DNA of 64,000 bases from Candidatus Pacearchaeota archaeon (GCA_018304025.1 JAGVXA010000004.1:9719-73718), one strand, 5' to 3'. Shown: positions 18,972-57,131, numbered from the stretch's first letter. Numbers and translations are program-made. The notes: a model not told the origin generated them from the letters alone.

Positions 18972-18980
18972 ACTTAATCT

Positions 18981-22493: not shown

Positions 22494-22497
22494 CTCC

Positions 22498-36881: not shown

Positions 36882-37670
36882 ATGAAACGCTTTTTTCTTT
36901 TTTTCTTTTTTATATTAATATCAGTCCAAACAATAACAGCAGTCAGATTTTCTCCTTCAAGTCTGACTTATATGTTAGAGCCAAACGAAGAATTATGTCA
37001 AATGATTTCCCTCAACTCAGAATCTTCACTGATAATTGTTTCAGATGCTTGGACGAAGAACGAGAGTGATGAATGGAAAATCACCCTATTCAACACAACA
37101 GCAGAAGAACATGGCTTGGCAATTTCTTATCCAAAAACTCTTTCAATAAACGAAAGGCAAGTTAACGTCTGTATTTCTGGAACAAAAGAGGGAGAGTTTC
37201 ATGGCGTAATAATAATGAGTCAGAAACAACAAGGAAATTCTATCATTCAGATGGGAGTCTGGCTCAAAGTAATCATTAAAGAAAAACCAATAGAGCAAGC
37301 AACTTCCCAAACAACTTCCCAAACAACAACCACCCCAAGCAGCAGCGGAGGCAGCAGCTCCCCGCCAAAAACAATCCCCCAGAACCAAACTCAAAAAAAC
37401 AAAACATCGACGGAAAACAGCATCAGGCAGTTATCAGCCGAAAAAACCCAGCCCCAAGAAGAGAAAGTATCCAATATAGGAATAACCGGAAAAGTCGTTA
37501 CTGAATCAAACAACAAACTAAGATACTCCACTGCCATAATCATTTTAATAATCATAGCACTCGCCATTGCAGTAGTTTACATAAAAAAAAGGCAAAATCC
37601 ATATGAAAAAATATTTTCTCGCGCTCGCAGGAATTCTTTTAATTACAACTGTCTTTGCAGTTTTAGTTGA
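36882..37670 (+). CDS. Surface-anchored protein, paralog of 35031..35810
   Basis: It has MKRFFLFFFFILISVQTITA, the shared LEPNxELCQ block, a Thr/Ser/Gln-rich linker and a C-terminal TM anchor. Its tail overlaps the next gene by 67 nt. Confidence 0.45.
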   Translation: MKRFFLFFFFILISVQTITAVRFSPSSLTYMLEPNEELCQMISLNSESSLIIVSDAWTKNESDEWKITLFNTTAEEHGLAISYPKTLSINERQVNVCISGTKEGEFHGVIIMSQKQQGNSIIQMGVWLKVIIKEKPIEQATSQTTSQTTTTPSSSGGSSSPPKTIPQNQTQKNKTSTENSIRQLSAEKTQPQEEKVSNIGITGKVVTESNNKLRYSTAIIILIIIALAIAVVYIKKRQNPYEKIFSRARRNSFNYNCLCSFS

Positions 37671-39861
37671 ACAGCAATTAACCGCAACAGTTTTAGAATA
37701 TCCGAAAGTTTTAATCAATGAATTCACAGTAGACCCGCAGACAGACTGGGACGGAAGCGGCTCAGCAACTACGTCAGACGAATGGGTGGAATTATACAAC
37801 ACCCAGCCAATCCCAATTGATTTAACCAGCTGGACTTTAGTCCTCAACGATTCAACAGACGAATTCGAATCCCTAATAGGAATTATTCCGCCATATAGTT
37901 ATTTAGTTATCTATCCAGACGGATCCCAAAATAACGACGGGCAATTGCTTCTTTACGACAATTCAAGCATTCTTATCGACGCAGTAGCATACGGAGACTG
38001 GGACGACGGAAACACAGCAGACAACGCGCCGGATGGAAACGCAAATAACATTACAAACGAATGTCTCTCAAGATTGCCGAATGCAAAAGACACAAACACA
38101 GACAATACTGATTTTACAAAATTAACTTGCACTTACGAACAGTCCAATAATGCCTGGAACATGACTCTCATCCCAGTTGTCATAACAGATATTCCTTCAA
38201 TTCCTTTCTGCCTCTTGGAAACAGACAGCTTAATAGTTTCAGCAAACATAACAGGCAGCATAAAAAAAATCTCTCTCTCTTATAGCACGGGCGGAGCTTG
38301 GAAAGAAATTTCTCTCCCCGGAAATACCGAAGGAATTTATTCAGCAGCAATACCCTCTTCAGAATTAAATGGCAAATCAACGGTCTCTTGGAAATTTGTT
38401 GTCGAAAACATCGCCGGAGATTTAACCTACGGAACAGAGCAAAGCAAAAGCATTGCTAAAAGAACTCTCCTCTCAATCTCCCCATCACAGCCAGATGGAC
38501 AAAACAACTGGTACATCACCGAACCGACTTTCACTTTGGAAAATCCTGACGCATCAATTATAGAATACAGATGGAATGGAAACTTTTTCATATACTCAAA
38601 ACCATTCAAACTCGAAGGCACGCCAAACAACGCAAGCCTCACTGGCGGAATCAGCATGCTAAAATATTGGAGTGATGTTTGTTCAGGAGAGCCAGAACAA
38701 AATCAAACATTTCATTTTGATTTCACAAGCCCAATAATAGAACAAACATCTCCAACAGGGCAGATAACAAAACTAAAACCTACGATAAGCGCGTACATCG
38801 ATGAAAAATATTCGCAAAACTCAGGAATTAATATCTCAAAAATAACAATAAAATTAGACAACGCCGACGTAACCAAAGACGCTGTAATCTCTCCGATAGA
38901 CGCGATCGACGCAGCAATAACTTATTCTCCGGTGGAAAACTTGTCAGTTGGCCAGCACGAAGTAACAATCAGCGCAGAAGACAAGGCAGGAAGAAACTCG
39001 CAATTAACTTGGACATTTGAAATTGTAAAAAGCTTCACGCTAAAATTAGCAGTTGACTATCCTGAATCAAAAGATTACAACATCAAAAGAATTCCGTTCA
39101 ATCTGACAACTTCAGAACAATCAAGAAAAATAGAATACATAAATTACGCAGACAACAAGCCAAGATGGCAGACGCTCTGTTCAAACTGCGACAGCTACGG
39201 CGCCGAAAAAATAAAAACCAAAATCCTCAAAGAAGGATGGAACAATCTGACAATTAGAGCAATAGGAGAATTTAGCACGGACGAAAAAAATATTTCAATA
39301 TTCATCGACTCAAAAGCGCCGGTAATATCAAAAACAGAACCAGCCAGAAATAAAATAATCAACGGCTCTTTCTTCCGGGTAAAATACACAGAAGAAAATC
39401 CTGCAAATATAAAATTATTCTGGAATCCAAACATAACCTTGCAAAATTGCACATCAGGAAGAAACCAAGTCTGTTCTACTTCAATAAATCTCTCTAACTT
39501 TGATGACCAATTGATTGATTATTATTTTGAAATCTCCGACGGAATAAACACAGTAAAGTCAAAAACTAATAAAGTTTTTGTTGACACAACTTCTCCCCGA
39601 TTAGCAATTAACCTTCCACAAAACGAAACAGTTTACAGAAGCAAGGTTCCATTCAACCTCACAGTTTCAGAAAAAGCAGAAATTGAATACTTCGATATTT
39701 CATCAGGAGCAAAATGGATAAAGCTCTGTTCAAACTGCGACAGCTACGGCGCCGAGAAAATAAAATACAAAAGATTCAGCAGGGGAAATCACAACATTCT
39801 AATCAGCGCAACAGACAAGGCTGGAAACTCCGACGTCAAACAGGTTTTTTTCACAGCTTAA
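37603..39861 (+). CDS. Large secreted protein with repeated Ig-like DKAGN-type domains
   Basis: It has a signal peptide. The repeated WQTLCSNCDSYGAEKIK module occurs twice and ends in ATDKAGN. It is paralogous to 8196..9875. Confidence 0.6.
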   Translation: MKKYFLALAGILLITTVFAVLVEQQLTATVLEYPKVLINEFTVDPQTDWDGSGSATTSDEWVELYNTQPIPIDLTSWTLVLNDSTDEFESLIGIIPPYSYLVIYPDGSQNNDGQLLLYDNSSILIDAVAYGDWDDGNTADNAPDGNANNITNECLSRLPNAKDTNTDNTDFTKLTCTYEQSNNAWNMTLIPVVITDIPSIPFCLLETDSLIVSANITGSIKKISLSYSTGGAWKEISLPGNTEGIYSAAIPSSELNGKSTVSWKFVVENIAGDLTYGTEQSKSIAKRTLLSISPSQPDGQNNWYITEPTFTLENPDASIIEYRWNGNFFIYSKPFKLEGTPNNASLTGGISMLKYWSDVCSGEPEQNQTFHFDFTSPIIEQTSPTGQITKLKPTISAYIDEKYSQNSGINISKITIKLDNADVTKDAVISPIDAIDAAITYSPVENLSVGQHEVTISAEDKAGRNSQLTWTFEIVKSFTLKLAVDYPESKDYNIKRIPFNLTTSEQSRKIEYINYADNKPRWQTLCSNCDSYGAEKIKTKILKEGWNNLTIRAIGEFSTDEKNISIFIDSKAPVISKTEPARNKIINGSFFRVKYTEENPANIKLFWNPNITLQNCTSGRNQVCSTSINLSNFDDQLIDYYFEISDGINTVKSKTNKVFVDTTSPRLAINLPQNETVYRSKVPFNLTVSEKAEIEYFDISSGAKWIKLCSNCDSYGAEKIKYKRFSRGNHNILISATDKAGNSDVKQVFFTA

Positions 39862-39961: not shown

Positions 39962-40405
39962 ATGATAATTCAAGTTTTTTTGTTGATTTTCATAAATATT
40001 TTCATAATTCTAATACTAGGTATAAACTGGAGAAAAATTAGAAATTTTTTTGTTGAAGAAACATATACTTATTTTGAAGTTGTTTTTATAGCCCTATATT
40101 TTTTAGAACAAGCAGCGTTCATAGGGCTATCTTATTTCTATGAAGAGTATAACACTCTTTTAGTAGGCTTCTTCGCACTCGTTGTTTTGACGACAGTTGC
40201 CCTCAACAAATTGATGATGGAAAGTAAAAACAGAAGACTAGCTCAGAAAATCAATCAACTCGTCGATAAATCCTTAGAGAAGTTTGTTTCTGCAATAGAA
40301 CAATATGAAAAATTGATGGACGAAGTTAGAATAAATGTAGAAGAGCTTGAGCAGGAAAATAGAGCATTAAGAAATTTTATAAAAAAGAACAGAAAAAATT
40401 TGTAA
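39962..40405 (+). CDS. Membrane protein with C-terminal coiled coil
   Basis: It has 3 TM helices and a heptad-like C-terminus. Confidence 0.4.
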   Translation: MIIQVFLLIFINIFIILILGINWRKIRNFFVEETYTYFEVVFIALYFLEQAAFIGLSYFYEEYNTLLVGFFALVVLTTVALNKLMMESKNRRLAQKINQLVDKSLEKFVSAIEQYEKLMDEVRINVEELEQENRALRNFIKKNRKNL

Positions 40406-40758
40406 TATTAAATTAATAATCTTATCTTATTGTGTATCTCTAAAACTTCTTTTTCTATTTTATTTACATTTGCTCTTGCACGAGTCATGCTCGAATTCGT
40501 CTCTTTGCTGTAATTTTTATCATTCTCTAAAATTTCTTTTATTTCAATATTCCTTTTAGAAATTTTTTTTGTCATAAATAATTCAGCCTCTTTTTGTATA
40601 TAAAATCTTGTGCAGTAAAGTATATAAATTAATCGTTCTATTGTAAGTAAAATAAAGCGATGCATTCTTCTTGCCGCCAAAGATTCTTTCACCAACTAAT
40701 TTTTCATCAAAAAAAAGTAGTCACGAACATTTAAATAGAAAACCATTTTTTACCCGCT

Positions 40759-42195
40759 ATGAAAAAAAGTGGTGTCGTCATAACAGCTATTCTATCAATA
40801 TTTCTTCTTGTTTCCCTCGCATCAGCAGCAGACGTTGCTTATCTTTACAAAAAAAATTCTCAGGTGGACGATAATGTCCTTGCTGTTTTCAACGAGCTTT
40901 CTCTGACAGTTGATCTAATCCAGGAAAACTCTCTCCCAAATAATTTCAATTCCTACAAATTAATTTATGTCGGAAAAGAAAATTATAGAAACAATGAAAA
41001 CTTTCCAGTTAACAATTATCCTTCTGTAATCTCAAATCGCAACCCTTCAAAGTCATGGGGCTTGACAGACAGCAACGGAGTCAGCCAGATGGGTTCAACA
41101 TCTCCTTTAAGCGTAGTAGTCAACTCAAACTCGCTTGCAGTTTATACGCAGGGGCTAAAAGAAAACAAAGTCGCAGTCTCCTATTATTATCTAGGTAAAG
41201 ACAGCAAAGCGCAATCATTGCAGCAAATCGCAGCAACAAAAACAACTTCATCAGGAGTCAAATTTGGCGACGTTGTTTCCTACGCTGAAGCAGGAGCGCA
41301 ATTGCTCAACGGAAAAACACAAAAGAAAAACCTATGTTTCTTCGGAATAGTCGAATCAGACTACTGGACGCCAGAAGCAAAAAACTTGTTCAAGGAATGC
41401 ATTAATTTTGCCGTCGGCACTGTTCAGCCAGCTCCAGAATGCACAAATAACACAGAGTGCCCAGCAGAACAATTATCACAGCCGTTCTGCCAAAATAATA
41501 ATGTTTACAAAACAAAAACAACGAGCTCTTGCGTAGAAAACAAATGCGTTCCTTCCGGAGAAAATGTTTCCGTTGAGACATGCTTGTTCGGCTGTGAATC
41601 AGGCGCATGCAAGCCAGCTCCAACACCAATAGAAGAATGCAACGCAACCAAAATCTGCAATTCAACATTTTCAGAGCCGTTCTGCCAAAATAATAATGTT
41701 TACAAAACACAATTCAATTCCTCTTGCGTAGCAGGACAATGCGTCGCATCATCAAATCAAAGCATCCTAATAACAGTATGCCCTTACGGCTGTTCGCAAG
41801 CCCAATGCCTTCAACCAGAAATTCACGACGTCGCATTAATCGACTTCGCAAACTCCACAAATAAAATCCGTATCAAAGACGCAGCAGGAATAATTATTTC
41901 AAACAACCAGTTGCAATGCAATTCAAAATACAAGTTTGAAATAAGCGCCGAGAACAAAGGAAACTTCACAGAGGATGTTTCTTTCGCAGGCTCAATCGGC
42001 TCCCTCGAATTAAATCACAATTCAATCTCAAACTTTTCAGCCGGAGAAAAAACAACAACACCAAAGTCAAAGACAATAAACATGACTCTCACAGAAGGAT
42101 ATTACAACATCTCAATCGAAGCAATCCTTGACGGATTCACAGACGCAAACCCATCGAACAATAAAGCTCTAAGAGAAATTTTTGTTTCTTGTTAA
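40759..42195 (+). CDS. Secreted protein: conserved ~220-aa N-terminal domain + two 8-Cys repeat modules
   Basis: The signal peptide ends in ASAADVAYLY. Its N-domain is shared with 43847 and 50256 (VNNYPSVI...WGLTD...CFFGIVESDYWTPEAK). It has two CPAEQLSQPFCQNNNVYKT...C repeats. Confidence 0.6.
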   Translation: MKKSGVVITAILSIFLLVSLASAADVAYLYKKNSQVDDNVLAVFNELSLTVDLIQENSLPNNFNSYKLIYVGKENYRNNENFPVNNYPSVISNRNPSKSWGLTDSNGVSQMGSTSPLSVVVNSNSLAVYTQGLKENKVAVSYYYLGKDSKAQSLQQIAATKTTSSGVKFGDVVSYAEAGAQLLNGKTQKKNLCFFGIVESDYWTPEAKNLFKECINFAVGTVQPAPECTNNTECPAEQLSQPFCQNNNVYKTKTTSSCVENKCVPSGENVSVETCLFGCESGACKPAPTPIEECNATKICNSTFSEPFCQNNNVYKTQFNSSCVAGQCVASSNQSILITVCPYGCSQAQCLQPEIHDVALIDFANSTNKIRIKDAAGIIISNNQLQCNSKYKFEISAENKGNFTEDVSFAGSIGSLELNHNSISNFSAGEKTTTPKSKTINMTLTEGYYNISIEAILDGFTDANPSNNKALREIFVSC

Positions 42196-42204
42196 TAAAA
42201 TTAA

Positions 42205-42744
42205 TTATTTGCTTGCTTCAATAGGTTCTATTTCTCTATTAAAGTTTATTCTTCTGTGTTCTGTCCTTTCTTGAGTTAGAAATGCACATAAATTATCTGT
42301 AATTATATGAACTTTTGCCGTATTTATTTCTGAATAATGATCTCTTAACAGAATCCCTCGCTTTGCTCTCCAGTCTCCTTGAGTAAATCCTGGCATTGTT
42401 CCGTCATAACGATATAACTTACAGTGGGGGAAAAAATATTCTCCAAACTTTCCGCTAATTCCTCCCTCTTCATTATTCCACTTCCAACGCGGATTATAAA
42501 ATTCATTTGCATTAAACCTCGTCATCCAATTATTTTCTAATTCATCAATAAACCAAATTCTATACTCTTTAACATCTTGAATATCAGGACGAGGAATTTC
42601 AACAAAAGTCATGCTATGCATATCAATTAATTCCTCTGCCCTTTTACTAATTTTTTCCATTTGTTCTTGAATTCTTGCTAAGACATCTTCTTCTGCCATG
42701 AAAAGTTTAGCAATTTCATAGATATATAAATATTTCTTCCCCAT
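42205..42744 (-). CDS. Hypothetical cytoplasmic protein
   Basis: The ORF is 179 aa with no signal peptide. It lies antisense, between the surface genes. Confidence 0.4.
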   Translation of the reverse strand: MGKKYLYIYEIAKLFMAEEDVLARIQEQMEKISKRAEELIDMHSMTFVEIPRPDIQDVKEYRIWFIDELENNWMTRFNANEFYNPRWKWNNEEGGISGKFGEYFFPHCKLYRYDGTMPGFTQGDWRAKRGILLRDHYSEINTAKVHIITDNLCAFLTQERTEHRRINFNREIEPIEASK

Positions 42745-42863
42745 CTGTCAAAAAATCTTTTTTCCGTCGGCATTAGGCAATGTAATCCATAAACCATAAA
42801 TTACGCATTCATTAATTCCAAGTGGTAACCAACATTTAAATACAAAATCTATTTTTCCAAGTC

Positions 42864-43781
42864 ATGAAAAAAAGAGTGCTCATAATATCTGTTTTGTGTC
42901 TCGTCATGTCTTGTCTTTTTGTTTCCGCCCTGGAAATAATTTCGCCGGAAGATGAGCAATGGTATGACTCTCGTTCTGTGATGTTCAGCTTAAAATCCGA
43001 CAACCCCAGCGATTTTTTTTATGTCAAAGAGCCGGCACTCAGAGAAAGATGGTCTAAACTTTGCAGCAATGTTAAATCCTGCGAAAAGTTAGTAAAGCTT
43101 CAGGAAGGGAAAAACAATGTCGCAGTGAAATCAGACGGCGTGGTGGTAAGCGAAATGGACTACCAGGAAATAATTGTATACGTTGATTCTAAAAAGCCAA
43201 TTATAAAAAAGATATGGCACCAAAGAAATTCCCTTCTTCAAGAGGAAGAATTTGGAATCGATTTCGAGGAAAAAAATTTAGATGAGGTTCTTTTGCAGTA
43301 TGGCTCAAATGAAGCAGAAATGAACTCAAATGAAATCTCTGCTGATACAAACTCAGACTGCGAAAGCACAGGCGAAGATAATCAGAGATGTGTCTTCCGC
43401 GTGCCTGGCAGCATGGCAAATTACGAAGGGGAAAAAATAAAATACCGAATCATAGTCGCAGACAAGGCAGTCAACGAAGCTTCAAAAACAGAATTTTTCG
43501 AAGTTGATCAGACAGCTCCGGAAATAAAATTCTCCGATTATGTCGTCAGGCAAAGAACAGTTGATTTTGTTCTTGACATCTTCGAAAAAAACTTTCAGGA
43601 AGTTTATTATACCGACGATAACGATGCAGCAGGCACAAAAAGAAGAATATGCAGCGTGCTAAAGTACGGCAGATGTTTCAAGACAAAAACCTTTGGCCCC
43701 GGTGATTACGCTTTCACGATTCACGTAGTAGACAAGGCAGGCAACGAAGCAGTTGAATCCTTGGACATTTCAACACGTTAA
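42864..43781 (+). CDS. Secreted protein with two Ig-like DKAGN-type domains
   Basis: It has a signal peptide. The modules WSKLCSNVKSCEKLVKLQEGKN...ADKAVNEA and ...VVDKAGNEA are homologous to modules of 8196 and 37603. Confidence 0.55.
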   Translation: MKKRVLIISVLCLVMSCLFVSALEIISPEDEQWYDSRSVMFSLKSDNPSDFFYVKEPALRERWSKLCSNVKSCEKLVKLQEGKNNVAVKSDGVVVSEMDYQEIIVYVDSKKPIIKKIWHQRNSLLQEEEFGIDFEEKNLDEVLLQYGSNEAEMNSNEISADTNSDCESTGEDNQRCVFRVPGSMANYEGEKIKYRIIVADKAVNEASKTEFFEVDQTAPEIKFSDYVVRQRTVDFVLDIFEKNFQEVYYTDDNDAAGTKRRICSVLKYGRCFKTKTFGPGDYAFTIHVVDKAGNEAVESLDISTR

Positions 43782-43846
43782 TCTTTTCCTTCACCAAACA
43801 AAAGTAGTAAGATGCATTTAAATAAAAAACAATCCCTTGATTTTCC

Positions 43847-46453
43847 ATGAAAAAGAGAACGCAGCTGTTCGCAGTATCTTTCACACTTCTAATTTTAACA
43901 TCTGCCATCGCGTCAGCAGGAGACGTCGCATATCTTTACAGAAAAACATTTCAAATAGACAAGAATATAATTGATGTTTTCGAAGAGCTCGGTTTGACAG
44001 TTGATTATATTCAGGAAAAAAATCAGCCGTCAAGTTACAGCGGATACAGATTAATTTTTGTTGGAGACGAAAACTTCAGGGCAAATATTCCAGTTAACAA
44101 TTACCCTTCTGTAATCGTAAGCTACTACGACGCAGAAAGATGGGGATTGACAGACGAGGAAGGAATCAGCCAGATGGGAGCAAACGCCCCTATGAGTGTT
44201 GTAATAAACAGCCATCAAACTCAAGTTTATACGCAGGCATTAATTCAAGAGACAGTTGCAGTTCCTTATTATTATCTTGACATCGAGGACAAAACACCTG
44301 GAATGCAGCAGGTAGCGGCAACAGAAACAACAGAATCTGGATTCAAAATTGGCGACGTGATTTCTTACGCGCCCATCGGAACCCAGATGTCAAATGGAAA
44401 AACACAGCAGGCAGAACTCTGCTTTTTCGGGATAGTCGAATCAGATTACTGGACACCTGCAGCAAAAGAGTTGTTCGTCGATTGCGTGAATTACGTGGCA
44501 GCAGAATGTTCGCAGGACTCAGACTGCCCGGCGCCAACAACCTCCGCGCCGTTTTGCGTCGGAAATGACGTTTACTTTACGCAATATTCAAACACTTGTG
44601 AAAACACTTTGCTGGCGCGCTGCGTTGCGCACGAGCAGGATATATTCAGCAAAACCTGCCCTTACAGCTGCCTTGACGGGCAATGCGCAGGCGAATGCAA
44701 CAACAACGCAGACTGCGACGACAGCAACTCTTCAACAGAAGACATCTGCCATAATCCTCAAACACCCCAATCATTTTGCACTAACGAACCAATAGAATGT
44801 TCTTATAATTCAGACTGCGGAACAGACGGACTAATCAACCAACCAACTTGCTCAGGACTAAATGTCGTTCAAGATTACAAAACATTTACTTGCAATAATC
44901 CTGGCACAGCACAATCATCCTGCTCTTCTTCAATCTCACAGCAAATCTTAGAAACATGCTCAGACATTTGCGTTAATGGAGAATGCAAAGATATAGAATG
45001 CTACAACAACGCAGATTGCGGCACAGACGGATTAATTGGAGAATTATTTTGCACCGGAGACAACGTATTCCGGAATTTCAAAACATTTACTTGCAATAAT
45101 CCTGGCACACCCGAATCTTCTTGCTCTTCTTCAATCTCTCCGCAATTAATCCAGACTTGCCAAGAGACTTGTCTTGAAGGAATCTGCGTCGATATAGAAT
45201 GCAACAACAACGCAGATTGCGGCACAGACGGACTAATCAACCAGCCAACTTGCTCAGGACTAAATGTCGTTCAAGATTACAAAACATTTACCTGCCACAA
45301 CCCAGCAACACCGTCGTCATCCTGCTCTTCCTCAATCACACAGCAAATCTTAGAAACATGCTCAGACATTTGCGTCAATGGTGCATGCCATGACGTAGAA
45401 TGTGATGAAAACTCAGACTGCAACGACGCAAATCCTTTAACGCTGGACGAATGCATCAACCCTGGAACAATAATAAGCGACTGCAGAAACACTCCGATTA
45501 ATTGCAACAACAATTTGGACTGCGGATTCACAGGATTTTTCGGAAATGAATTCTGCTCTAACGACGACATCGTAAAAAATTATCAGCTTGCAGTTTGCCA
45601 CAACCCAAACACTTTGAGTTCATCATGTGATTTGCAAATCTCGCAAGAGACAATCCTCTCTTGCCCATACGCATGCCACGACGCAGCGTGCATTAGATGC
45701 GACGGAAACTCAGACTGCAACGACCAAGATTCAGACACATTAGACATCTGCCGCAATCCAGGTGAATTAAACTCGTACTGTGAAAATCAAAACACAACTC
45801 CGCAAAACATAGACTGCTACACCAACGCAGACTGCGGAACAAACTCCCCAGTCAGCCAATTATTCTGCTCGCTCAACAACGTAAATCAATTATTCCTGAC
45901 ATGGACTTGCAATAATCCTGCGACAATTCAATCATACTGTTCATCAAGCTTCCAGCAGCAAATAATCCAAACCTGCCCAGACATCTGCCAAAACGGGCAG
46001 TGCATCGGAATTACTTGTTACAACAACGCAGACTGCGGAACAGACGGACTAATCAACCAACCAACTTGCTCAGGATTAAATATCGTCCAGGATTACAAAA
46101 CATTTACCTGCCACAACCCAGCAACACCGTCGTCATCCTGCTCTTCCTCAATCTCTCCGCAGTTAATTCAAATTTGCAGTTATGCGTGCGCAGGAGGAAG
46201 TTGTATAGGACAATGCATTCCAGGACAAACTCAGCAATGCGGAAATTCAAATGTCGGAGAATGCGAGTTCGGAACAAAGACATGTAATTCTTACGGTTCT
46301 TGGAACAGCGAATGCGTCGGTGAAGTTTTGCCTTCAAATGAAATCTGCGACGGAAAAGACAACGACGCCTGTCTGTTCAAACGAATGCTCTTCATCAGGA
46401 ACAAGTCAATGTTACGGCGCAGGTTACAGAGTTTGCGGAAACTTCGACGCTGA
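43847..46453 (+). CDS. Large secreted protein: shared N-terminal domain + >=8 tandem 8-Cys repeats + MopE-like C-terminus; reading frame breaks near 46365 (likely frameshifted/pseudogene or assembly error)
   Basis: It has the paralogous N-domain and tandem ECxNNADCGTDGLINQPTCSGLNVVQDYKTFTCxNPxTPxSSCSSSI repeats. After EICDGKDND the frame degenerates into an Arg/Leu-rich tail, while the homologous C-terminal domain continues in another frame (46251..46688). Confidence 0.55.
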   Translation: MKKRTQLFAVSFTLLILTSAIASAGDVAYLYRKTFQIDKNIIDVFEELGLTVDYIQEKNQPSSYSGYRLIFVGDENFRANIPVNNYPSVIVSYYDAERWGLTDEEGISQMGANAPMSVVINSHQTQVYTQALIQETVAVPYYYLDIEDKTPGMQQVAATETTESGFKIGDVISYAPIGTQMSNGKTQQAELCFFGIVESDYWTPAAKELFVDCVNYVAAECSQDSDCPAPTTSAPFCVGNDVYFTQYSNTCENTLLARCVAHEQDIFSKTCPYSCLDGQCAGECNNNADCDDSNSSTEDICHNPQTPQSFCTNEPIECSYNSDCGTDGLINQPTCSGLNVVQDYKTFTCNNPGTAQSSCSSSISQQILETCSDICVNGECKDIECYNNADCGTDGLIGELFCTGDNVFRNFKTFTCNNPGTPESSCSSSISPQLIQTCQETCLEGICVDIECNNNADCGTDGLINQPTCSGLNVVQDYKTFTCHNPATPSSSCSSSITQQILETCSDICVNGACHDVECDENSDCNDANPLTLDECINPGTIISDCRNTPINCNNNLDCGFTGFFGNEFCSNDDIVKNYQLAVCHNPNTLSSSCDLQISQETILSCPYACHDAACIRCDGNSDCNDQDSDTLDICRNPGELNSYCENQNTTPQNIDCYTNADCGTNSPVSQLFCSLNNVNQLFLTWTCNNPATIQSYCSSSFQQQIIQTCPDICQNGQCIGITCYNNADCGTDGLINQPTCSGLNIVQDYKTFTCHNPATPSSSCSSSISPQLIQICSYACAGGSCIGQCIPGQTQQCGNSNVGECEFGTKTCNSYGSWNSECVGEVLPSNEICDGKDNDACLFKRMLFIRNKSMLRRRLQSLRKLRR

Positions 46454-46688
46454 TTCATGTCTTGAATGGTCTTCGGTAACAACATGTAATTACGGCTGCG
46501 CAAATGGAAATTGCAATCCACAACCCCCAATTACTTGCACAAATGAATGCTCTTTCACAGGCCAAAGGCAATGCACAAGCGCAGGTTACAGAATCTGCGG
46601 AAACTTCGACGCTGATTCATGTTTAGATTGGTCTCTGATAACTCAATGCGGTTTAGGAGCCGCGTGCACTTCAGGATACTGCGTTTAA
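46251..46688 (+). pseudogene. Out-of-frame C-terminal domain of the 43847 gene (Cys-rich YRVCGNFDADSCLxWS repeats)
   Basis: The translation ...CSNECSSSGTSQCYGAGYRVCGNFDADSCLEWSSVTTC...GYRICGNFDADSCLDWSLITQCGLGAACTSGYCV is about 80% identical to the C-terminus of 46749..48428. It sits +1 relative to the upstream frame. Confidence 0.5.
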
Positions 46689-46748
46689 TTTGCTACTCAT
46701 GAAGATGACATTTTGCCAACAAAATTTAAAAACCTCTTGCAATCCTAA

Positions 46749-48428
46749 TTGTTACTCCAAAAAATGACACCAAATCTAAGCGATAACAAAAAAGCACAAT
46801 CTTCAATTCTGGTATTTTTATTTATACTCATTTTATTTCTGCTTGCAAGTGCTGCTCTCGTCTTTTTATTATTCTCTTATTCTCCTTCAACTGTAAAAAA
46901 AGAAATCACTAATTCAAATTACAATGAAATTGAACAAGACGCAGTTTTCATTCCAATAAGCAAAGATATAATAGACACAGACGAGGACAGCGTGGAAGAC
47001 ATCGAGGATAACTGCCCGCTCCATTTTAATCCGTTCCAAGAGGACAAAGACGAAGACGGAAAAGGAGACGCCTGCGACGTCTCAAGGTCAAATAGAAACA
47101 GTCACGACGATGACGACGAAATAGAGTGTTCTTCTAATTCAGACTGCGGCACAGGCGCATTAACAGGAAATAGATTTTGCCAATCAGGCGACGTCTATCA
47201 AAATTTCAAAAATCACACTTGCAATAATCCCGGTAAAACATCTTCATCCTGCTCTTCTTCAACAACCCCTAAATTAATTCAAGATTGTATCTTCGGATGC
47301 GCTAACGGAACTTGCATTGTTCCGGCTTGCAGCACAAACACAGACTGCGACGACAGCAATAATTACACAGAAGACATCTGCAAAAATCCAGGCACATCTC
47401 AAAGCTATTGCGAGCACAATCCTATTGCTTGTTTGAAAAATATGGACTGCGGATTTAACGAATTAATCGGCAATTTATTTTGTTCTTCAAATAATTTAAA
47501 TGTGTTGCAATTATTCCAGTCTTGGATTTGTCTTTCTCCGGGCACAGCGCAATCCTCTTGCTCTTCTTCAACAACTCCCCAAATAATCCAAACATGCTCA
47601 GACATTTGCGTTAATGGAGAATGCAAAGATATAGAATGTTACAACAACGCAGATTGCGGCACAGACGGATTAATCAACCAGCCAACTTGCTCAGGACTAA
47701 ATGTCGTTCAAGATTTTAAAATATTCCGTTGCAATAATCCTGGAACTCCGCAATCATCTTGTTCTTTCTCGCTCTGCCAGGAAATCCAGCAGTTATGTTC
47801 AGATGCTTGCATTGCAGGAATTTGCGCCGATATAGAATGTTATAACAACGCAGATTGCAATGACGCAAATCTTCTAACAGAAGACATTTGCCACAATCCA
47901 GCAACACCAGAATCTTACTGCACCAACGAATTAATATCAGAATGTATTCCAGGACAAACTCAGCAATGTGGAACTTCTAATATTGGAGAATGCGATTTCG
48001 GAACAAAGACATGTAATTCTTACGGTTCTTGGAACAGCGAATGCGTCGGTGAAGTTTTGCCTTCAAATGAAATCTGCGACGGAAAAGACAACGACGGGCA
48101 AGTTTGTTATTCAGGAACAGGACAATGCAGAAAAGCTGGAAACTTTGTTTGTTCATCAAATGGATTAACAACAAATTGTAATGCGGTTGCTGGAACACCA
48201 ACAGCAGAAATCTGCGACGGAAAAGACAACGACTGCGACGGTTCAACAGACGAAAATAATGTCTGCGCATCTGGATGTACAAGCGAATGTCCAGTATTTG
48301 AAGCAAGACAATGCACAAGTGGCGGTTACAGAGTCTGCGGAAACTTCGACACTGATTCATGCCTTGATTGGTCTCTGATAACTCAATGCGGCTTGGGTTC
48401 AACATGCTCAGGAGGCTACTGTGTTTAA
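46749..48428 (+). CDS. Secreted/membrane-anchored protein with thrombospondin type-3-like Ca-binding repeat, 8-Cys tandem repeats and MopE-like (CDGKDNDCDG) repeats
   Basis: It has an N-terminal TM, then DNCPLHFNPFQEDKDEDGKGDACD (TSP3 consensus DNCPxxxNPxQxDxDxDGxGDACD). Its repeats are homologous to those of 43847. It also has EICDGKDNDGQ / EICDGKDNDCDGSTDENN. Confidence 0.6.
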   Translation: MLLQKMTPNLSDNKKAQSSILVFLFILILFLLASAALVFLLFSYSPSTVKKEITNSNYNEIEQDAVFIPISKDIIDTDEDSVEDIEDNCPLHFNPFQEDKDEDGKGDACDVSRSNRNSHDDDDEIECSSNSDCGTGALTGNRFCQSGDVYQNFKNHTCNNPGKTSSSCSSSTTPKLIQDCIFGCANGTCIVPACSTNTDCDDSNNYTEDICKNPGTSQSYCEHNPIACLKNMDCGFNELIGNLFCSSNNLNVLQLFQSWICLSPGTAQSSCSSSTTPQIIQTCSDICVNGECKDIECYNNADCGTDGLINQPTCSGLNVVQDFKIFRCNNPGTPQSSCSFSLCQEIQQLCSDACIAGICADIECYNNADCNDANLLTEDICHNPATPESYCTNELISECIPGQTQQCGTSNIGECDFGTKTCNSYGSWNSECVGEVLPSNEICDGKDNDGQVCYSGTGQCRKAGNFVCSSNGLTTNCNAVAGTPTAEICDGKDNDCDGSTDENNVCASGCTSECPVFEARQCTSGGYRVCGNFDTDSCLDWSLITQCGLGSTCSGGYCV

Positions 48429-48518
48429 TCTTAATTTTTTACTAACACCGGGTAGAAACAAAAAACCCCTCTCGCAAGACATAAATGTTTATAACTTAAA
48501 TTCAGCTCAAAAAATAAA

Positions 48519-49574
48519 ATGAAAAACCCAGCAAAAACAATACGCGGAAGAATTTTAGGAACTGCAGCAAGTATCGCATCTCTAGTTATGCCAGGCTGCG
48601 CCCCGCAAGAAAATTATGCCCCTGAATTTTATCTTGAAGATAACGCTGGAAATCCTGTCGCAGCAATTACAGGAGCAAAAGCAGAAGAATACGGCGTCGA
48701 CGAAGTTTACGAAGCTTCATTAGACAAATTCCCGCTTGTTGTAAGAGCTGAAGATTCTGACGGCCCAGAATTAATCGGACATGTTGAGCCATATCAAACC
48801 AATCCTCCAGCAAATCTCGGAACAGAAGTTTCAAGACTGAATAGCGGAGAAGGAAGTTTGGAATGGCTTCTTCAAGCAAATCAAACAGGCCCAGTTGCCG
48901 ACGGAGAAAGACAAATTGCAGGCGCATGGGCATCTGACAGATATAACGGCTCGCGTCCTTCAATCGGAATTGGCGCAGTAGTTTGCGGAGTAGGCGTTTT
49001 CTATAATCTCGGAGATCCTCTGCCTCCAAAAAGAAAAACAGTTGCAGTAATTACAAATATTAACAACCACGAAATTCCTAAACCTTGGGAAGACGGCGAC
49101 GGAAAATGCGACGCGAATTTAGGCGAGCCCTATTCTTCAACAGACTGTTCTCCAACAACAGACGAACTTGTTAAATCAGGGCATATAAAATCTTATTTTG
49201 TCAACGAGCAAGGAGAAAGAATAGACACTGTTACAACAAACCCCGCAACACTTAGAATCTGGGTTTCTAACCAGCTAGATAATAGAAAAGCAGCATGGCC
49301 AACCATAGTTGACCCTCAAGAAAATGGACAGAGTGACTGCATCGATATCAGGAATAATTATTCGCAGCCCCAGCTCAAGGGCTCTGCAACTTATAATAAT
49401 TTATCCGGAGTAGCTTATGACACAAGAATAATTTTCAATGTTGCTCCAAATTGCAGGCAAGATGAAGTTGCAGGATTTGCAGTTTCTTTAACAACAAAAG
49501 ATGGTGACGTTATCTATCCAGTAATTGGCTCGGGCTTTGTTCCTCGTACTCTTCCTCCATACTCACAAGATTAA
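48519..49574 (+). CDS. Secreted (possibly lipo-)protein, compositionally atypical (higher GC)
   Basis: The signal peptide has SLVMPGCAPQ, a lipobox-like Cys. The GC content is noticeably higher than in the flanking genes. Confidence 0.5.
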   Translation: MKNPAKTIRGRILGTAASIASLVMPGCAPQENYAPEFYLEDNAGNPVAAITGAKAEEYGVDEVYEASLDKFPLVVRAEDSDGPELIGHVEPYQTNPPANLGTEVSRLNSGEGSLEWLLQANQTGPVADGERQIAGAWASDRYNGSRPSIGIGAVVCGVGVFYNLGDPLPPKRKTVAVITNINNHEIPKPWEDGDGKCDANLGEPYSSTDCSPTTDELVKSGHIKSYFVNEQGERIDTVTTNPATLRIWVSNQLDNRKAAWPTIVDPQENGQSDCIDIRNNYSQPQLKGSATYNNLSGVAYDTRIIFNVAPNCRQDEVAGFAVSLTTKDGDVIYPVIGSGFVPRTLPPYSQD

Positions 49575-49669
49575 TCCTGTCACTTTGAATAGTAGATACA
49601 CACCTTTATTCTGCAAAGCATATATAACATTACATTATTGTTTATAAACAAAATAACTCCCACTTAAAC

Positions 49670-50263
49670 ATGGTAAAAAATTTCTTGCCAGCCGCGTTAG
49701 CAATAATTTTAATCCTCAATATAACAGCAGCCGCAGCAATTACAGGAGCAATCGGAAATTCCCGAATGGTTTTAAGAATGGAGCAGGGCGAGGAAATTGA
49801 AAAATACGTTCTGGTAAAAAACGTAAATGATATTCCTCTGACAATAGACTTGATTATAACAGGAGATTTGGCAGACGAAGTTGAATTAGAAGAAGAGTCG
49901 TTTGTTCTGCAGCCAAAAGAAGAAAAGAAAGCATACTTCACAATCACGGCTGCAAAATCAGGAACAACAGAAACAAAAATTAATGTCAAATTCACGCCCG
50001 AAGAAGGAAACGGCGTCGGATTATCCTCGTCGGTAATTGTAATAACTTCGGGCGAGGGCGAAGAAGAATTAGACGATTCAGAAACAGATGATTCAGGCGC
50101 AGGCTCTCCATTAACAGGCTCAGTGATATCAGACAATCTTTCAAAAATATCAAGCACAACAATTTTAACAGTTTCAGCAGCAGTTTTGATTCTCGCACTG
50201 TTAGCATTAATAATCTATTCAATAAACAAAAAGAAAAAAAAGGTGAGGAGGTCCAATGCCTAA
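49670..50263 (+). CDS. Secreted protein with acidic linker and C-terminal TM anchor + poly-Lys tail
   Basis: It has a signal peptide, a beta-rich domain, a DDSETDDSGAG linker and a C-terminal ILTVSAAVLILALLALIIYSINKKKKK anchor. Confidence 0.5.
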   Translation: MVKNFLPAALAIILILNITAAAAITGAIGNSRMVLRMEQGEEIEKYVLVKNVNDIPLTIDLIITGDLADEVELEEESFVLQPKEEKKAYFTITAAKSGTTETKINVKFTPEEGNGVGLSSSVIVITSGEGEEELDDSETDDSGAGSPLTGSVISDNLSKISSTTILTVSAAVLILALLALIIYSINKKKKKVRRSNA

Positions 50264-52913
50264 AGCATGGAAATTTATTTTTCTCTTGGCGATTTTAATT
50301 CTTCCGTTGGCATCAGCAGCAGACGTCGCTTATATTTTGGAAGACCCTCCATCAGGTCAAACAAGTCCCCAACTAAATCTAGTAATTATATCAGCATTAA
50401 ATAATAAGGGATTAACATACGACGTAATAAAAGATTCCCAAATTCCGACGACAGATTTCTCCCAGTATTCTCTCTTGTTAATCGCAGAAGACGTTGACAA
50501 ACTAGATTATTCGCGGGTAAGTCAAAAAAATAAAATCTTTTTCAATGATAGAGTAGCAGAAGATGTTTGGAAGGGCGTTAGCGCTACGTATACAACAAAC
50601 AGAAAAACAATAAAATCAACAAATATTAACCATGAAGTTTTCGAAGGAATAACTTTTCCAACAGATTGGACAATGGAAATTTATAGTACAACAAATCAAA
50701 TACATTTTTTACAAATTAAACCATCATATATTACTACGCTGGCAATTAGGTCTGATTTAAACGTTCCAGTAATTGCATACTCAGAATCAAATGAAATAAA
50801 AAATTTCTTTTTCGGAGCCCCTTTCTTCAATGACTGGAACAGCAACGGAAAGCAGATATTTGAAAACGCATTAACCTGGATGACTCAATTACCAGACGAA
50901 TGTAATTTAAACTCAGAATGCGACGACAGTAATCCCCTAACACAAGACATCTGCCACGAACCGCAGGCAGAAACATCTTATTGCACAAACGACTTGCTTC
51001 CCCCTGAAAACAACCCTCCAACATTCACAGGCCCAATCCCAGAAATTAGATGGATAAAAGGAACAGCATCTGAACCTCTTAATCTAAATAATTATTTTGA
51101 TGATTTAGACGGAGAGGATTTAACTTTTGGAATATCAGCATATAATCCGGAGAATACAGGAATTCATATTAACCCGCCAGAAGAAAACGGTATCTTCTCA
51201 TTTTGGTCAGACGCAGAATTCACAGGAGAAGACTGGATTGTCTTTTACGCCGACGACGGAGAAGACAGAACATCAACCAACACAATAATCCTGTCAGTAA
51301 TTCCAATTATTCCGCCGGAAAATCAGCCGCCTGTTTTTCAAGCTCTTCAGTGCGAAACGCAAATAGACGAAGACGCAGAAGAGAAAACCTGCGTTCTGCA
51401 AGCATCTGATCCCGAAAACGACGAATTAACATTTGAAGTTGAATCGCAGGCAAATTTAATCTGCGCAATAAATGAAAACACCCTAACATACTCCCCAGAA
51501 GAAAATTACAACGGTTCAGCATCCTGCACTATCTCAGTTTCCGACGGAACTTCAGCAGATTCAAAAACATTAGAAATAAACATTCAGCCAATTAACGACG
51601 CTCCTGAAATTATCTCTGCCACCCCAAGCCAAAGCGTAATTAATTTATTCGAAGGAAAATCTCAAATTTTCTCATTGGAAACGCAAGACATAGATTCTGA
51701 AAAAACGCTCCAGTGGTTTTTAGATGATATCCTGCAATTAACAACAGCTTCGCAATACACCTTCCTGCAATCTCCAGGCTCTTACATTCTTTCCGCCAAA
51801 GTTTCCGACGGACAATTTACAAATGAAAAAATCTGGAGCGTAATAGTGGGTAATATCGAAGATTACACTTGTTCTGAAGTTTCTGGATATATTACAAAGG
51901 AAAACGAAATCTGCAGAGGGGAATTCTTAGGCGTAAAAGACTACCCTGAATCGTGCTGCTCAACCATTCCCGAACCAAAATTCGGAGACGCAAAGACTTG
52001 CGAATCTTTAAGCAATGAAATAGAGATAGAAATAGAAAATCCAGAAGACGGTGATGCAATAGAATTCGGAAGCACACTAGATATAGAATTAGACATAACA
52101 AATAATCAGGATGAAGAGCAGGACATTGAAGTAGAAGCGTATCTTTATGATTTAACCGACGACAAAGTATTAATGGAAGACAGCGCTTCAATTTCAGTCG
52201 GAGACGACAGCTCAAGAGTATTAAAATTCAATTTCGAAATTCCAAATGATTTGGACTTGGAAAACAAATACGCAATTTTAACAAAGGCGTATTCCGAAGA
52301 CGATAAAGATACATGTAATCAGATTTACAAGAAAATAGAATTAAACAGGCCGAATGAAAATGTTATAATCTCGGCATTTGATTTGCCCTTGACAGCAGTA
52401 TGCGGGCAGGTAATATCCTCAAAAATAAAATTAGAAAATCTTGGTTCAGAAAGCCAGGAAGCAGCAATTTCTTTAAAGAATAAAGACTTGGGCATTTCGC
52501 AGACATCAGAGAAATTCACAATTGAAGAATATGACGAAGACAATGATAAAAAAACAATGGAATTTTCCCTAAAAATTCCCGAAGATGCGGAAACAAAGGC
52601 GTATGTGATAACAGCAACGCTTTCTTACGGCGCGCTAAGAGAAACACTGACAAAAGAAATTAAGATACAATGCAGCTCGCAAGAACCAAACACTTCATTT
52701 ACAGCTGAAACTCTCTCTGACGAACAAACGCAGATAAATTTGAATAAAAACCAACCAGCAGTAGCCTCCCAGCAGACAAAACCAAAGACATTTCTCTATA
52801 TGATGATTTTATCTAACATAAGCCTAATCATAGTCTCTGTCTTGGCTTATCTTTTGATTTTGCCGTCGGTAAATTCAAAGATTTCAATAAGAAGAGAGTT
52901 GTTAAAAAAATGA
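50256..52913 (+). CDS. Large surface protein: shared N-terminal domain, cadherin/Ig-like repeats, C-terminal TM anchor
   Basis: The signal peptide ends in ASAADVAYIL, the same start as the 40759 and 43847 N-domain. It has the CNLNSECDDSNPLTQDICHEPQAETSYC module and a C-terminal IIVSVLAYLLILP anchor. Confidence 0.6.
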   Translation: MPKAWKFIFLLAILILPLASAADVAYILEDPPSGQTSPQLNLVIISALNNKGLTYDVIKDSQIPTTDFSQYSLLLIAEDVDKLDYSRVSQKNKIFFNDRVAEDVWKGVSATYTTNRKTIKSTNINHEVFEGITFPTDWTMEIYSTTNQIHFLQIKPSYITTLAIRSDLNVPVIAYSESNEIKNFFFGAPFFNDWNSNGKQIFENALTWMTQLPDECNLNSECDDSNPLTQDICHEPQAETSYCTNDLLPPENNPPTFTGPIPEIRWIKGTASEPLNLNNYFDDLDGEDLTFGISAYNPENTGIHINPPEENGIFSFWSDAEFTGEDWIVFYADDGEDRTSTNTIILSVIPIIPPENQPPVFQALQCETQIDEDAEEKTCVLQASDPENDELTFEVESQANLICAINENTLTYSPEENYNGSASCTISVSDGTSADSKTLEINIQPINDAPEIISATPSQSVINLFEGKSQIFSLETQDIDSEKTLQWFLDDILQLTTASQYTFLQSPGSYILSAKVSDGQFTNEKIWSVIVGNIEDYTCSEVSGYITKENEICRGEFLGVKDYPESCCSTIPEPKFGDAKTCESLSNEIEIEIENPEDGDAIEFGSTLDIELDITNNQDEEQDIEVEAYLYDLTDDKVLMEDSASISVGDDSSRVLKFNFEIPNDLDLENKYAILTKAYSEDDKDTCNQIYKKIELNRPNENVIISAFDLPLTAVCGQVISSKIKLENLGSESQEAAISLKNKDLGISQTSEKFTIEEYDEDNDKKTMEFSLKIPEDAETKAYVITATLSYGALRETLTKEIKIQCSSQEPNTSFTAETLSDEQTQINLNKNQPAVASQQTKPKTFLYMMILSNISLIIVSVLAYLLILPSVNSKISIRRELLKK

Positions 52914-52985
52914 ATTGATTCAATTCAATTTGTTAGTTTATGTTCATTAAAATAGGGGCGCTTCTCAAGATTCATTTTGTATTAA

Positions 52986-53260
52986 TTATTCCCCTCCCAA
53001 TTTAATTTTATCTCACAACCCAACCGAACTCTTTCCCCAATTTATTTTTGTCTATCGCAATAAATCCCCAACCCCTCTTGAATTTTCTCCCCAATAATTA
53101 TTCCCCTCCCCATTTAATTTTATCTCACAACCCAACCGAACTCTTTCCCCAATTTATTTTTGTCTATCGCAATAAATCCCCAACCCCTCTCGAATTTTTC
53201 TCCCCATTAATTATTCCCCTCCCCAAAACTCCCCACCCATCTTTAAATCCTCACCCCATT
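52986..53260. repeat. Tandem ~113-bp direct repeat (2.3 copies) rich in C4-5 tracts (CCCCAA-like)
   Basis: The unit ttattcccctccc(c)a(a)tttaattttatctcacaacccaaccgaactctttccccaatttatttttgtctatcgcaataaatccccaacccctct repeats at 52986 and 53099. A partial third copy follows. Confidence 0.7.
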
Positions 53261-57107: not shown

Positions 57108-57131
57108 CTTATATTATTAATATCTCCGTCG

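What the first reader, a model, noticed from the sequence alone, without database searches (positions are those of the whole stretch)
40759..52913. Paralog array of surface proteins: conserved N-terminal domain fused to hypervariable 8-Cys tandem repeats, with near-identical intragenic DNA copies
Three genes (40759, 43847, 50256) start with the same ~220-aa domain (ADVAYLY...VNNYPSVI...WGLTD...CFFGIVESDYWTPAAKELF). They then diverge into different numbers (2 to >=8) of a ~65-aa repeat with the pattern EC.NNADCGTDGLINQPTCSGLNVVQDYKTFTC.NP.TP.SSCSSSI.Q.I..CSD.C.NG.C.

Within 43847 and between 43847 and 46749, stretches of >100 nt are virtually identical. Examples are 45221-45340 vs 46041-46160 and 44990-45040 vs 47630-47690. 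This implies ongoing gene conversion or repeat expansion. I do not recognise the 8-Cys module as a named domain. It looks like a rapidly diversifying surface-adhesin family, possibly for host or episymbiont attachment.
Basis: seen in the sequence. Interest (0 to 1): 0.75.

Follow-up and report, generated by a model that had tools for sequence, protein, structure and literature searches.

The report
Cysteine-rich surface protein cluster, Pacearchaeota
A tiny groundwater archaeon carries a conserved cluster of secreted proteins made of an enzyme-like but apparently inactive head domain followed by strings of a previously uncatalogued 8-cysteine building block; these look like rigid cell-surface rods, and some repeats have been copied over one another by gene conversion, but they are not hypervariable.

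Summary
The window comes from a Candidatus Pacearchaeota (DPANN) genome from groundwater.

Only g40759 and g43847 share the clear N-terminal domain. g50256 has a 20%-identical version of it, with one short 4-Cys module and no 65-aa repeat. g46749 has the repeats but no N-domain.

- **Family size:** N-domain plus module arrays form a large unannotated family of 786 cluster representatives, up to 2594 aa. They sit in a gene order that recurs in Pacearchaeota and Woesearchaeota genomes.

Comparison with a syntenic relative shows clear gene-conversion tracts within g43847 and between g43847 and g46749. Module number and order are nevertheless conserved, dN/dS is 0.15–0.25, and three full-length independent assemblies match the window at every aligned base. 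"Hypervariable" and "repeat expansion" are therefore not supported.

The frameshift in g43847 is very probably an assembly error. Function is inferred, not shown: a surface rod or adhesin.

The parts
40759..42195 (+). g40759 (478 aa). Signal peptide, then N-domain (about 40828-41415), then two short-variant 8-Cys modules (41440-41610 and 41638-41808), then an unassigned C-terminal β-rich domain (41821-42192).
   Evidence: It is identical to database protein P0120, which occurs on at least 23 contigs. Relatives P0007-P0010 have the N-domain joined directly to the same C-terminal domain.
43847..46688 (+). g43847, really one 958-aa gene. Signal peptide, then N-domain (43916-44500), then modules in the order L S L L L S L S L L (44501-46210), then an EGF/MopE-like Cys region (46211-46367), then two C-terminal 'GYRxCGNFDxDSC' modules (46368-46688). 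In this window it is broken by a 35-nt gap after 46366.
   Evidence: Searches give the unit coordinates. The intact 957-958-aa versions are in L002, L054, L055 and L058.
43916..44500 (+). N-domain of g43847, a non-catalytic class-I glutamine-amidotransferase-like α/β domain.
44993..45193 (+). One L module (unit 3 of g43847), the unit that was modelled. The other L units are at 44501-44692, 44792-44992, 45194-45394, 45497-45697, 45809-46009 and 46010-46210.
46024..46153 (+). Gene-conversion tract in unit 7 of g43847. It matches unit 4 (about 45208-45337).
   Evidence: 48 of 49 informative sites follow the paralog rather than the ortholog lA7, and the flanks follow the ortholog. Maximum chi-square 69.6, permutation p ≈ 0.002.
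47590..47799 (+). Mosaic conversion tract in g46749, running from the end of unit 2 through unit 3. It matches g43847 units 2, 3 and 4.
   Evidence: Exact runs 44952-45000 = 47590-47638, 45002-45036 = 47640-47674 and 45234-45278 = 47671-47715. Site test p ≈ 0.002. Ortholog identity drops to 48-63% here.
46205..46367 (+). EGF/MopE-like segment, 94% identical to 47934-48096 in g46749, including a 100-nt exact run. This is an intergenic conversion tract.
   Evidence: The corresponding L002 paralogs differ visibly in protein sequence. The 56% DNA figure is unreliable because that comparison was ungapped.
46366..46367 (+). Site where this window lacks 35 nt (TGCGACAGCTTAACAGATGAAAATAATATCTGCCC). 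The loss frameshifts g43847. A matching 36-nt loss lies after 48095 in g46749.
   Evidence: The segments are present in five other assemblies of the same population: L052, L053, L054, L055 and L058.
46749..48428 (+). g46749 (559 aa here, 566 aa called in other assemblies). N-terminal transmembrane anchor (about 46803-46877), thrombospondin-type-3-like acidic repeats (about 46974-47084), modules L S L L S (47121-47939), EGF/MopE-like region, and one C-terminal module. It has no N-domain.
   Evidence: It equals P0016, 'hypothetical protein J4402_01485 [Candidatus Pacearchaeota archaeon]'.
50256..52913 (+). g50256 (885 aa). Signal peptide, divergent N-domain (50313-50888), one S module (50901-51002), Big_9/cadherin-like Ig domains (about 51309-51584), a region resembling a putative S-layer protein (about 52026-52628), and a C-terminal transmembrane anchor (about 52791-52865).

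Best explanation
This is a conserved cell-envelope gene cluster of a Pacearchaeota (DPANN) archaeon. It encodes modular extracellular proteins.

**Shown**
- Three proteins start with a Sec-type signal peptide. It appears to be cleaved directly before a ~195-aa domain with a glutamine-amidotransferase-like fold and no catalytic triad.
- Two proteins carry arrays of a 67-aa module with eight essentially invariant cysteines. The module is predicted with high confidence to be a long three-stranded β-sheet plus a hairpin. A 34-aa four-Cys derivative is interspersed.
- One protein has an N-terminal membrane anchor and one has a C-terminal membrane anchor.
- The domain combination and the gene order recur across Pacearchaeota and Woesearchaeota genomes.
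- Repeats are occasionally overwritten by gene conversion, both within g43847 and between g43847 and g46749. They otherwise evolve under purifying selection with stable copy number between close relatives.

**Inferred**
- The cysteines form four disulfides per module, which would make stiff rods tens of nanometres long.
- The rods project the N-domain head, and/or the shared C-terminal modules, from the cell surface.
- The N-domain would act as a binding or oligomerisation head, as non-catalytic relatives of this fold do in other proteins.
- The set would then serve as envelope scaffold and/or attachment fibres for contact with host cells or particles.
For: **Organism and reproducibility.** g46749 equals an NCBI Pacearchaeota protein. 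Assemblies from separate groundwater sequencing runs and projects match the window at every aligned base.

**Export and anchoring.** Signal peptides, transmembrane anchors and Ig-like domains are visible in the translations. Big_9 and cadherin-like Pfam hits are.

**N-domain.**
- The AlphaFold2 model has pLDDT 89.8.
- No catalytic residues are conserved across 148 representatives.
- A profile search finds 786 cluster representatives, with the domain at the N-terminus in nearly all of the 150 listed hits.
- 124 of the 148 top representatives carry L modules, up to 20 per protein.

**L module.**
- pLDDT is 96.8.
- All 8 Cys are present in 679 of 682 units.
- There is no Pfam, NCBIfam or PDB sequence match and no fold match.
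- S matches only part of the L profile.

**Conserved cluster.** 30 of 52 loci have two or more N-domain ORFs. The order short-N, long N+L array, anchor+L array, N+Ig recurs.

**Gene conversion.**

**Purifying selection and stable copy number.**
Against: - There is no experimental or expression evidence for location, disulfides or binding.
- Model coordinates could not be inspected, so disulfide geometry is unchecked.
- These organisms come from groundwater that is often anoxic. Extracellular disulfides are not guaranteed there, and no disulfide-forming enzyme was identified in the window.
- Neither g43847 nor g40759 has a membrane anchor. Their attachment to the cell is hypothetical.
- dS is near saturation (about 1), so the dN/dS values are rough.
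Confidence: 0.6

Rival explanations
1. The proteins are S-layer or envelope-lattice components, a structural coat rather than adhesins. The N-domains would act as lattice-forming oligomerisation units.
For: - g50256 partly matches NCBIfam NF033506, 'putative S-layer protein': 83.8 bits, E 1e-23.
- The cluster is conserved across the order, as expected for core envelope genes.
- Evolution is purifying and the locus has no base differences across samples.
- The GH42 middle domain, a structural neighbour, is described as a trimerisation domain. This last point is from my own knowledge.
Against: - The NF033506 score is below its cut-off of 110, and only residues 591-791 match.
- L-module number varies from 5 to 20 between species. 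That is unusual for a lattice protein of fixed geometry.
- No abundance data are available.
Confidence: 0.25
2. The family is a rapidly diversifying, contingency-type surface family. Repeat expansion, contraction and gene conversion would generate variants for host switching or evasion.
For: - Several conversion tracts of different ages, 93% to 100% identical.
- L-module counts differ widely between species.
- The long genes are often fragmented in MAG assemblies.
Against: - Module number and order are the same in an ortholog with dS about 1.
- dN/dS is 0.15-0.25 in the repeats.
- Three assemblies spanning the locus, from different sequencing runs, match it at every aligned base.
- Most units are closest to their positional ortholog.
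Confidence: 0.1
3. The Cys-rich modules bind metals (Zn, Fe, Cu or Fe-S) rather than form disulfides. The proteins would then act in extracellular metal capture or redox chemistry.
For: - Eight invariant Cys per module.
- Adjacent weak hits to the MopE 'putative metal-binding motif'.
- A 2026 survey of archaeal 'dark' domains proposes that some small eight-Cys domains bind several metal ions (PMC13607799).
Against: - No His or Asp ligands are conserved in the module apart from one Asp before C2.
- The predicted fold is an extended β-sheet with Cys spread along its length, not knuckle-like clusters.
- The proteins are exported.
- The MopE hit is below its cut-off, 23.9 versus 27 bits.
Confidence: 0.1
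4. The near-identical stretches are assembly artefacts, either collapsed or chimeric repeats.
For: - Contigs of four other assemblies end inside the repeat region: L052 and L053 inside the 100-nt exact repeat, L056 and L057 near 44600-44720.
- This window itself has two losses of about 35 nt at the 3' edge of that repeat.
Against: Three assemblies from different runs and assemblers (L054, L055, L058) span the whole region and agree with the window at every aligned base outside those two losses.
Confidence: 0.03

Closest known systems
Non-catalytic class-I glutamine-amidotransferase-like domains: ThuA-like proteins, the GH42 middle domain, and the GIFT domains of GldG/IFT52/OST48
   Different: - There is no detectable sequence relationship: no Pfam hit at E ≤0.1 and 6-14% identity in the structural alignments.
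- Here the domain is an exported N-terminal head fused to Cys-rich arrays.
- It has its own conserved pair C168/C189 and many conserved Tyr and Trp residues.
Disulfide-stapled extracellular repeat modules of eukaryotes, such as thrombospondin type-1 repeats, EGF-like domains, and the 8-Cys periodic repeats of ciliate surface antigens. This is an analogy from my own knowledge.
   Same: Both are small (35-70 aa) modules with invariant Cys spacing, arrayed in tandem in exported proteins. The predicted shape is elongated and β-rich. Repeats of this kind are prone to recombination.
   Different: No sequence or fold match to any solved structure. The Cys pattern is different: C-x5-C-x10-C-x13-C-x9-C-x11-C-x3-C-x4-C. 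The lineage is archaeal.
MopE-type 'putative metal-binding motif' Cys-rich regions (Pfam PF11617) and thrombospondin type-3 repeats
   Same: g46749 carries CDGKDNDCDG-type motifs and acidic DxDxD repeats that weakly match these models. The same region follows the L arrays in g43847.
   Different: Scores are below the curated cut-offs: 23.9 versus 27 bits and 20.1 versus 25 bits. These motifs are accessory to the L and S arrays and do not explain them.
NCBIfam 'tandem-95 repeat protein' / Big_9 Ig-like surface proteins, and NF033506 'putative S-layer protein'
   Same: g50256 has Big_9 and cadherin-like domains above the Pfam cut-off. Its Pacearchaeota homologues are named 'tandem-95 repeat protein'. 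Residues 591-791 resemble NF033506.
   Different: Both NCBIfam scores are below their cut-offs: 73.6 versus 90 bits and 83.8 versus 110 bits. Neither model covers the N-terminal GATase1-like head or the S module.

Membership tests
Class-I glutamine amidotransferase (GATase1) enzymes | α/β GATase1 fold | tested here: met
Class-I glutamine amidotransferase (GATase1) enzymes | Conserved Cys-His-Glu catalytic triad | tested here: not met
   Across 148 family representatives no His column reaches 80%. The only conserved Cys are C168 and C189, near the C-terminus, and both are absent together in g50256.
ThuA-like (Pfam PF06283) and other Pfam GATase1-like families | Match to the family profile at or above the gathering score | tested here: not met
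   No Pfam family at E ≤0.1 for g40759 or g43847. No PDB sequence hit below E 1.7 with the family profile.
Cu-binding_MopE (PF11617) | Profile match at or above 27 bits | tested here: not met
   g46749 scores 23.9 bits, E 4.8e-5, over residues 486-502 only. The motif is visible, but it is a small accessory element.
Known small disulfide-rich extracellular domains (EGF, TSP1, Kazal and others) | Sequence profile or fold similarity of the L module | tested here: not met
NF033506 'PACE-CTERM-PROT' putative S-layer protein | Whole-protein score at or above 110 bits | tested here: not met
   g50256 scores 83.8 bits, covering residues 591-791 against profile positions 232-452 of 627.
Big_9 / cadherin-like bacterial Ig domains (PF17963, PF17892) | Profile match above the gathering score | tested here: met
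   g50256: Big_9 60.5 bits against a cut-off of 23.6, and Cadherin_5 45.2 bits against 26.5. This applies only to the middle of g50256.
Contingency or antigenic-variation repeat families | Within-population or between-close-relative variation in repeat number or sequence, with relaxed or positive selection | tested here: not met
   The module order is the same in ortholog L002. dN/dS is 0.15-0.25. Independent assemblies match the window at every aligned base. Read-level variation could not be tested.

The most novel reading that the evidence does not exclude
The 67-aa eight-Cys unit would be a genuinely new protein fold family specific to Pacearchaeales/Woesearchaeales-type DPANN archaea. Together with the GATase1-like head, it would form the attachment apparatus: rods anchored by g46749 and g50256 and tipped by N-domains or C-terminal modules. 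These uncultivated episymbionts would use it to hold on to their hosts. The N-domains of the three proteins would heteromerise to assemble the complex.
Probability: 0.25. Interest if true: 0.8.

Novelty: new variant of a known kind. Interest (0 to 1): 0.55.

Why it matters
How Pacearchaeota and Woesearchaeota contact other cells is unknown, because none is cultivated.

This locus offers a concrete candidate: a widely conserved gene set built from an uncatalogued disulfide-rich module and a repurposed amidotransferase-like head.

Both domains model with high confidence. They could be added to domain databases, which would annotate hundreds of large 'hypothetical' DPANN proteins.

The locus is also a clean natural example of intragenic and intergenic gene conversion in an archaeal repeat protein.

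Finally, it shows how repeat boundaries create false frameshifts in metagenome-assembled genomes.

Tried and rejected
- **Domain libraries.** Pfam and NCBIfam scans gave nothing for the N-domain or the L, S and C-terminal modules.
- **PDB sequence searches.** Profile searches with the N-domain and L-module alignments gave nothing significant.
- **AlphaFold database fold search.** This was not possible because the library was unavailable. An AFDB or ECOD match for the L module therefore cannot be excluded.
- **Word-indexed protein search.** For the N-domain it found only 10 relatives and suggested a rare family. The exhaustive profile search corrected this to 786 representatives.
- **Look-up and scan failures.** The exact-sequence look-up of P0016 found no contig. 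The broad alignment A1 was too divergent for the genome scan and was replaced by A3.
- **Disulfide partners from co-loss.** All eight Cys are essentially invariant, so there was no signal. The only hint is that the S module keeps the positions matching C1, C2, C4 and C5.
- **Real pseudogene or programmed frameshift in g43847.** Rejected, because five other assemblies of the same population carry the missing 35 nt.
- **Literature.** Searches for DPANN, Pacearchaeota or Woesearchaeota combined with cysteine-rich, surface, S-layer or adhesin found no description of this family.
- **Ungapped quartet comparison of the EGF/MopE region.** The comparison is distorted by indels in the L002 sequences. 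Only the 94% window paralog identity is relied on.
Full report
**Source and layout**

The window is an archaeal contig.
- g46749 equals NCBI protein 'J4402_01485 [Candidatus Pacearchaeota archaeon]'. The single residue difference is the TTG start codon.
- g40759 equals a protein found on at least 23 contigs of groundwater metagenomes.

The region 37.6-53 kb is a run of + strand genes for exported proteins. Outside it lie glycosyltransferases, a subtilase next to a serpin, TatD and an aminoacyl-tRNA synthetase.

**Checking the observation**

The DNA repeats are real. There is a 201-nt periodicity in 44.7-46.2 kb and 47.1-47.8 kb.
- The best stretches are 84/85 identical (44952-45036 vs 47590-47674) and an exact 100-nt run (46268-46367 = 47997-48096).

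The protein description needs correcting.
- g40759 and g43847 share a clear N-terminal domain.
- g50256 shares it only remotely: 20% identity, and 18 bits against a profile built without it. BLASTP does link it to N-domains of other L-array proteins at E 1e-11 to 1e-15.
- g50256 has no 65-aa repeat.
- g46749 has the repeats but no N-domain.

**Module anatomy**

L is 67 aa with the pattern C-x5-C-x10-C-x13-C-x9-C-x11-C-x3-C-x4-C. S is 34 aa with four Cys. S matches only positions 1-10 and 31-47 of the L profile, that is C1, C2, C4 and C5.

| Gene | Architecture |
|---|---|
| g40759 | signal peptide, N-domain, 2 short-variant L, unassigned β domain |
| g43847 | signal peptide, N-domain, L S L L L S L S L L, EGF/MopE-like region, 2 C-terminal Cys modules |
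| g46749 | N-terminal transmembrane anchor, acidic thrombospondin-3-like repeats, L S L L S, EGF/MopE-like region, 1 C-terminal module |
| g50256 | signal peptide, divergent N-domain, 1 S, Big_9/cadherin-like Ig domains, C-terminal transmembrane anchor |

All three signal peptides end in ASA immediately before DVAY, the first strand of the N-domain.

**What the domains are**

Neither Pfam nor NCBIfam recognises the N-domain or the L, S and C-terminal modules.

*N-domain.*
- It models at pLDDT 89.8.
- No catalytic triad is conserved across 148 representatives. The conserved residues are mainly Tyr, Trp, Gly and a Cys pair, C168/C189.
- It is best read as a non-enzymatic head domain.

*L module.*
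- It was modelled with 147 diverse units and reaches pLDDT 96.8. The model has three long β-strands and a short hairpin.
- All eight Cys are present in 679 of 682 units.
- I infer four disulfides. Because S keeps C1, C2, C4 and C5, I also infer that these four pair among themselves.

**How widespread it is**

The word-indexed search found only 10 N-domain relatives. The exhaustive profile search found far more.
- There are 786 cluster representatives: 677 at E ≤1e-10 and 320 at E ≤1e-30. The domain is at the N-terminus in nearly all of the 150 listed hits, in proteins up to 2594 aa.
- 124 of the 148 top representatives carry L modules, up to 20 per protein.
- S-type modules occur 493 times in 151 of 316 collected proteins.
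- L/S arrays without the N-domain occur in Pacearchaeota, Nanoarchaeota and Aenigmarchaeota records, plus a few records labelled Patescibacteria.

In one genome per species, 49 loci were found. Nearly all are Pacearchaeota, Woesearchaeota or Nanoarchaeota MAGs.

The gene order recurs: a short N-domain protein, a long N+L-array protein, an L-array protein without the N-domain, then an N-domain+Ig protein.
- 30 of 52 loci hold two or more N-domain ORFs.
- By my reading, in about 20 of roughly 29 loci with enough downstream sequence, a long N+L gene is followed by an N-domain gene without L modules.

So this is an old, conserved cluster of distinct family members, not a recent paralog array.

**Gene conversion**

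L002 is a syntenic locus from a relative, at about 77% nucleotide identity. It carries orthologs of 477, 957 and 566 aa with exactly the same module order.

Most L units are closest to their positional ortholog, at 71-85%. The exceptions are:
- **Unit 7 of g43847.** Over 46024-46153, 48 of 49 informative sites follow unit 4, and the flanks follow the ortholog (permutation p ≈ 0.002).
- **Units 2-3 of g46749.** They carry a mosaic of g43847 units 2, 3 and 4 (p ≈ 0.002).
- **The EGF/MopE-like segment.** It is 94% identical between g43847 and g46749, while the L002 paralogs differ visibly.

Ortholog identity dips exactly in these tracts. L002 shows a conversion of its own, with its g46749-ortholog unit 3 following unit 1. 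Tract identities range from 93% to 100%, so the events have different ages.

**Not hypervariable**
- dN/dS against L002 is 0.09-0.10 for the N-domains, 0.15-0.25 for the repeat regions and 0.32 for the neighbouring LTD protein. dS is near saturation, so these values are rough.
- Copy number and order are conserved.
- Three assemblies from other runs (L054, L055, L058) match the window at every aligned base over 40001-52124.

Between species, the number of L modules does vary, from 5 to 20.

**The frameshift is an artefact**

The window lacks 35 nt after 46366 and 36 nt after 48095. Both sites are at the 3' edge of the 100-nt exact repeat.

Five other assemblies contain these segments. They give an intact 958-aa g43847 and a g46749 with 12 more residues.

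Two assemblies start inside that repeat, and two end near 44.6-44.7 kb. Similar splits of the long gene appear in other MAGs.

**Mechanism and rivals**

My preferred reading is that these are stiff, disulfide-stapled surface rods with a binding or oligomerising head. They would serve as envelope scaffold and/or attachment fibres. The location and architecture are read directly from the sequence. The function is inference.

- A purely structural, S-layer-like role is the main rival, given the sub-threshold NF033506 match.
- Metal binding by the Cys and true contingency variation are less likely, for the reasons given above.

No paper in the searchable library describes the family. One 2026 survey notes unclassified eight-Cys archaeal domains in general terms.

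Noticed in passing
window 10489-11349 (+): An ORF with Pfam Sigma70 region 2 and region 4 matches sits on an otherwise archaeal contig. A bacterial-type sigma-like protein in a Pacearchaeota genome is unexpected.
   Followed up: no
window 46366/46367 and 48095/48096: The window lacks 35 nt and 36 nt that are present in five other assemblies of the same population. Both losses sit at the 3' edge of a 100-nt exact repeat. The first creates a false frameshift in g43847, and the second removes 12 residues from g46749.
   Followed up: yes
window 52983-53206: A 112-nt tandem duplication (95% identical) lies in the C/T-rich spacer after g50256. Assembly L053 has one copy, while the window and L052 have two. 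There is no Rfam match.
   Followed up: partly
window 4440-4571 (-): Rfam finds a 132-nt tRNA match, probably intron-containing (40.7 bits). ARAGORN did not report it.
   Followed up: no
window 54582-59105 (-): An exported subtilase (841 aa) lies two genes from a serpin (435 aa), with an isochorismatase-family gene between them. This may be a protease-inhibitor pair.
   Followed up: no
window 40703-40782 and 42808-42887: The 80 nt upstream of g40759 and of the 305-aa gene at 42864 are 71% identical. Both include an 'ACATTTAAATA' TATA-like box about 30 nt before the ATG. They probably share a promoter type.
   Followed up: no
window 37603-39861, 42864-43781, 48519-49574 and 49670-50263 (+): The cluster holds further exported proteins. 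One is an LTD plus Ig-like protein with repeated 'LCSNCDSYGAEKIK' segments. One is a 305-aa relative of it. One is a 351-aa protein with a lipobox-like 'PGC' after its signal sequence. One is a 197-aa Ig-like protein with a C-terminal anchor. Most have counterparts in the syntenic locus L002.
   Followed up: partly
loci L001, L007, L030, L034, L043: In other MAGs the long N-domain/L-array gene is split into 2-4 consecutive ORFs. This is probably the same kind of repeat-boundary assembly error as in this window.
   Followed up: no
window 25110-26188 (+) and 15956-23519: There is a nucleotidyltransferase/HEPN gene pair. There is also a cluster of GT4 and GT2 glycosyltransferases with a polysaccharide flippase. 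The latter could glycosylate the surface proteins.
   Followed up: no
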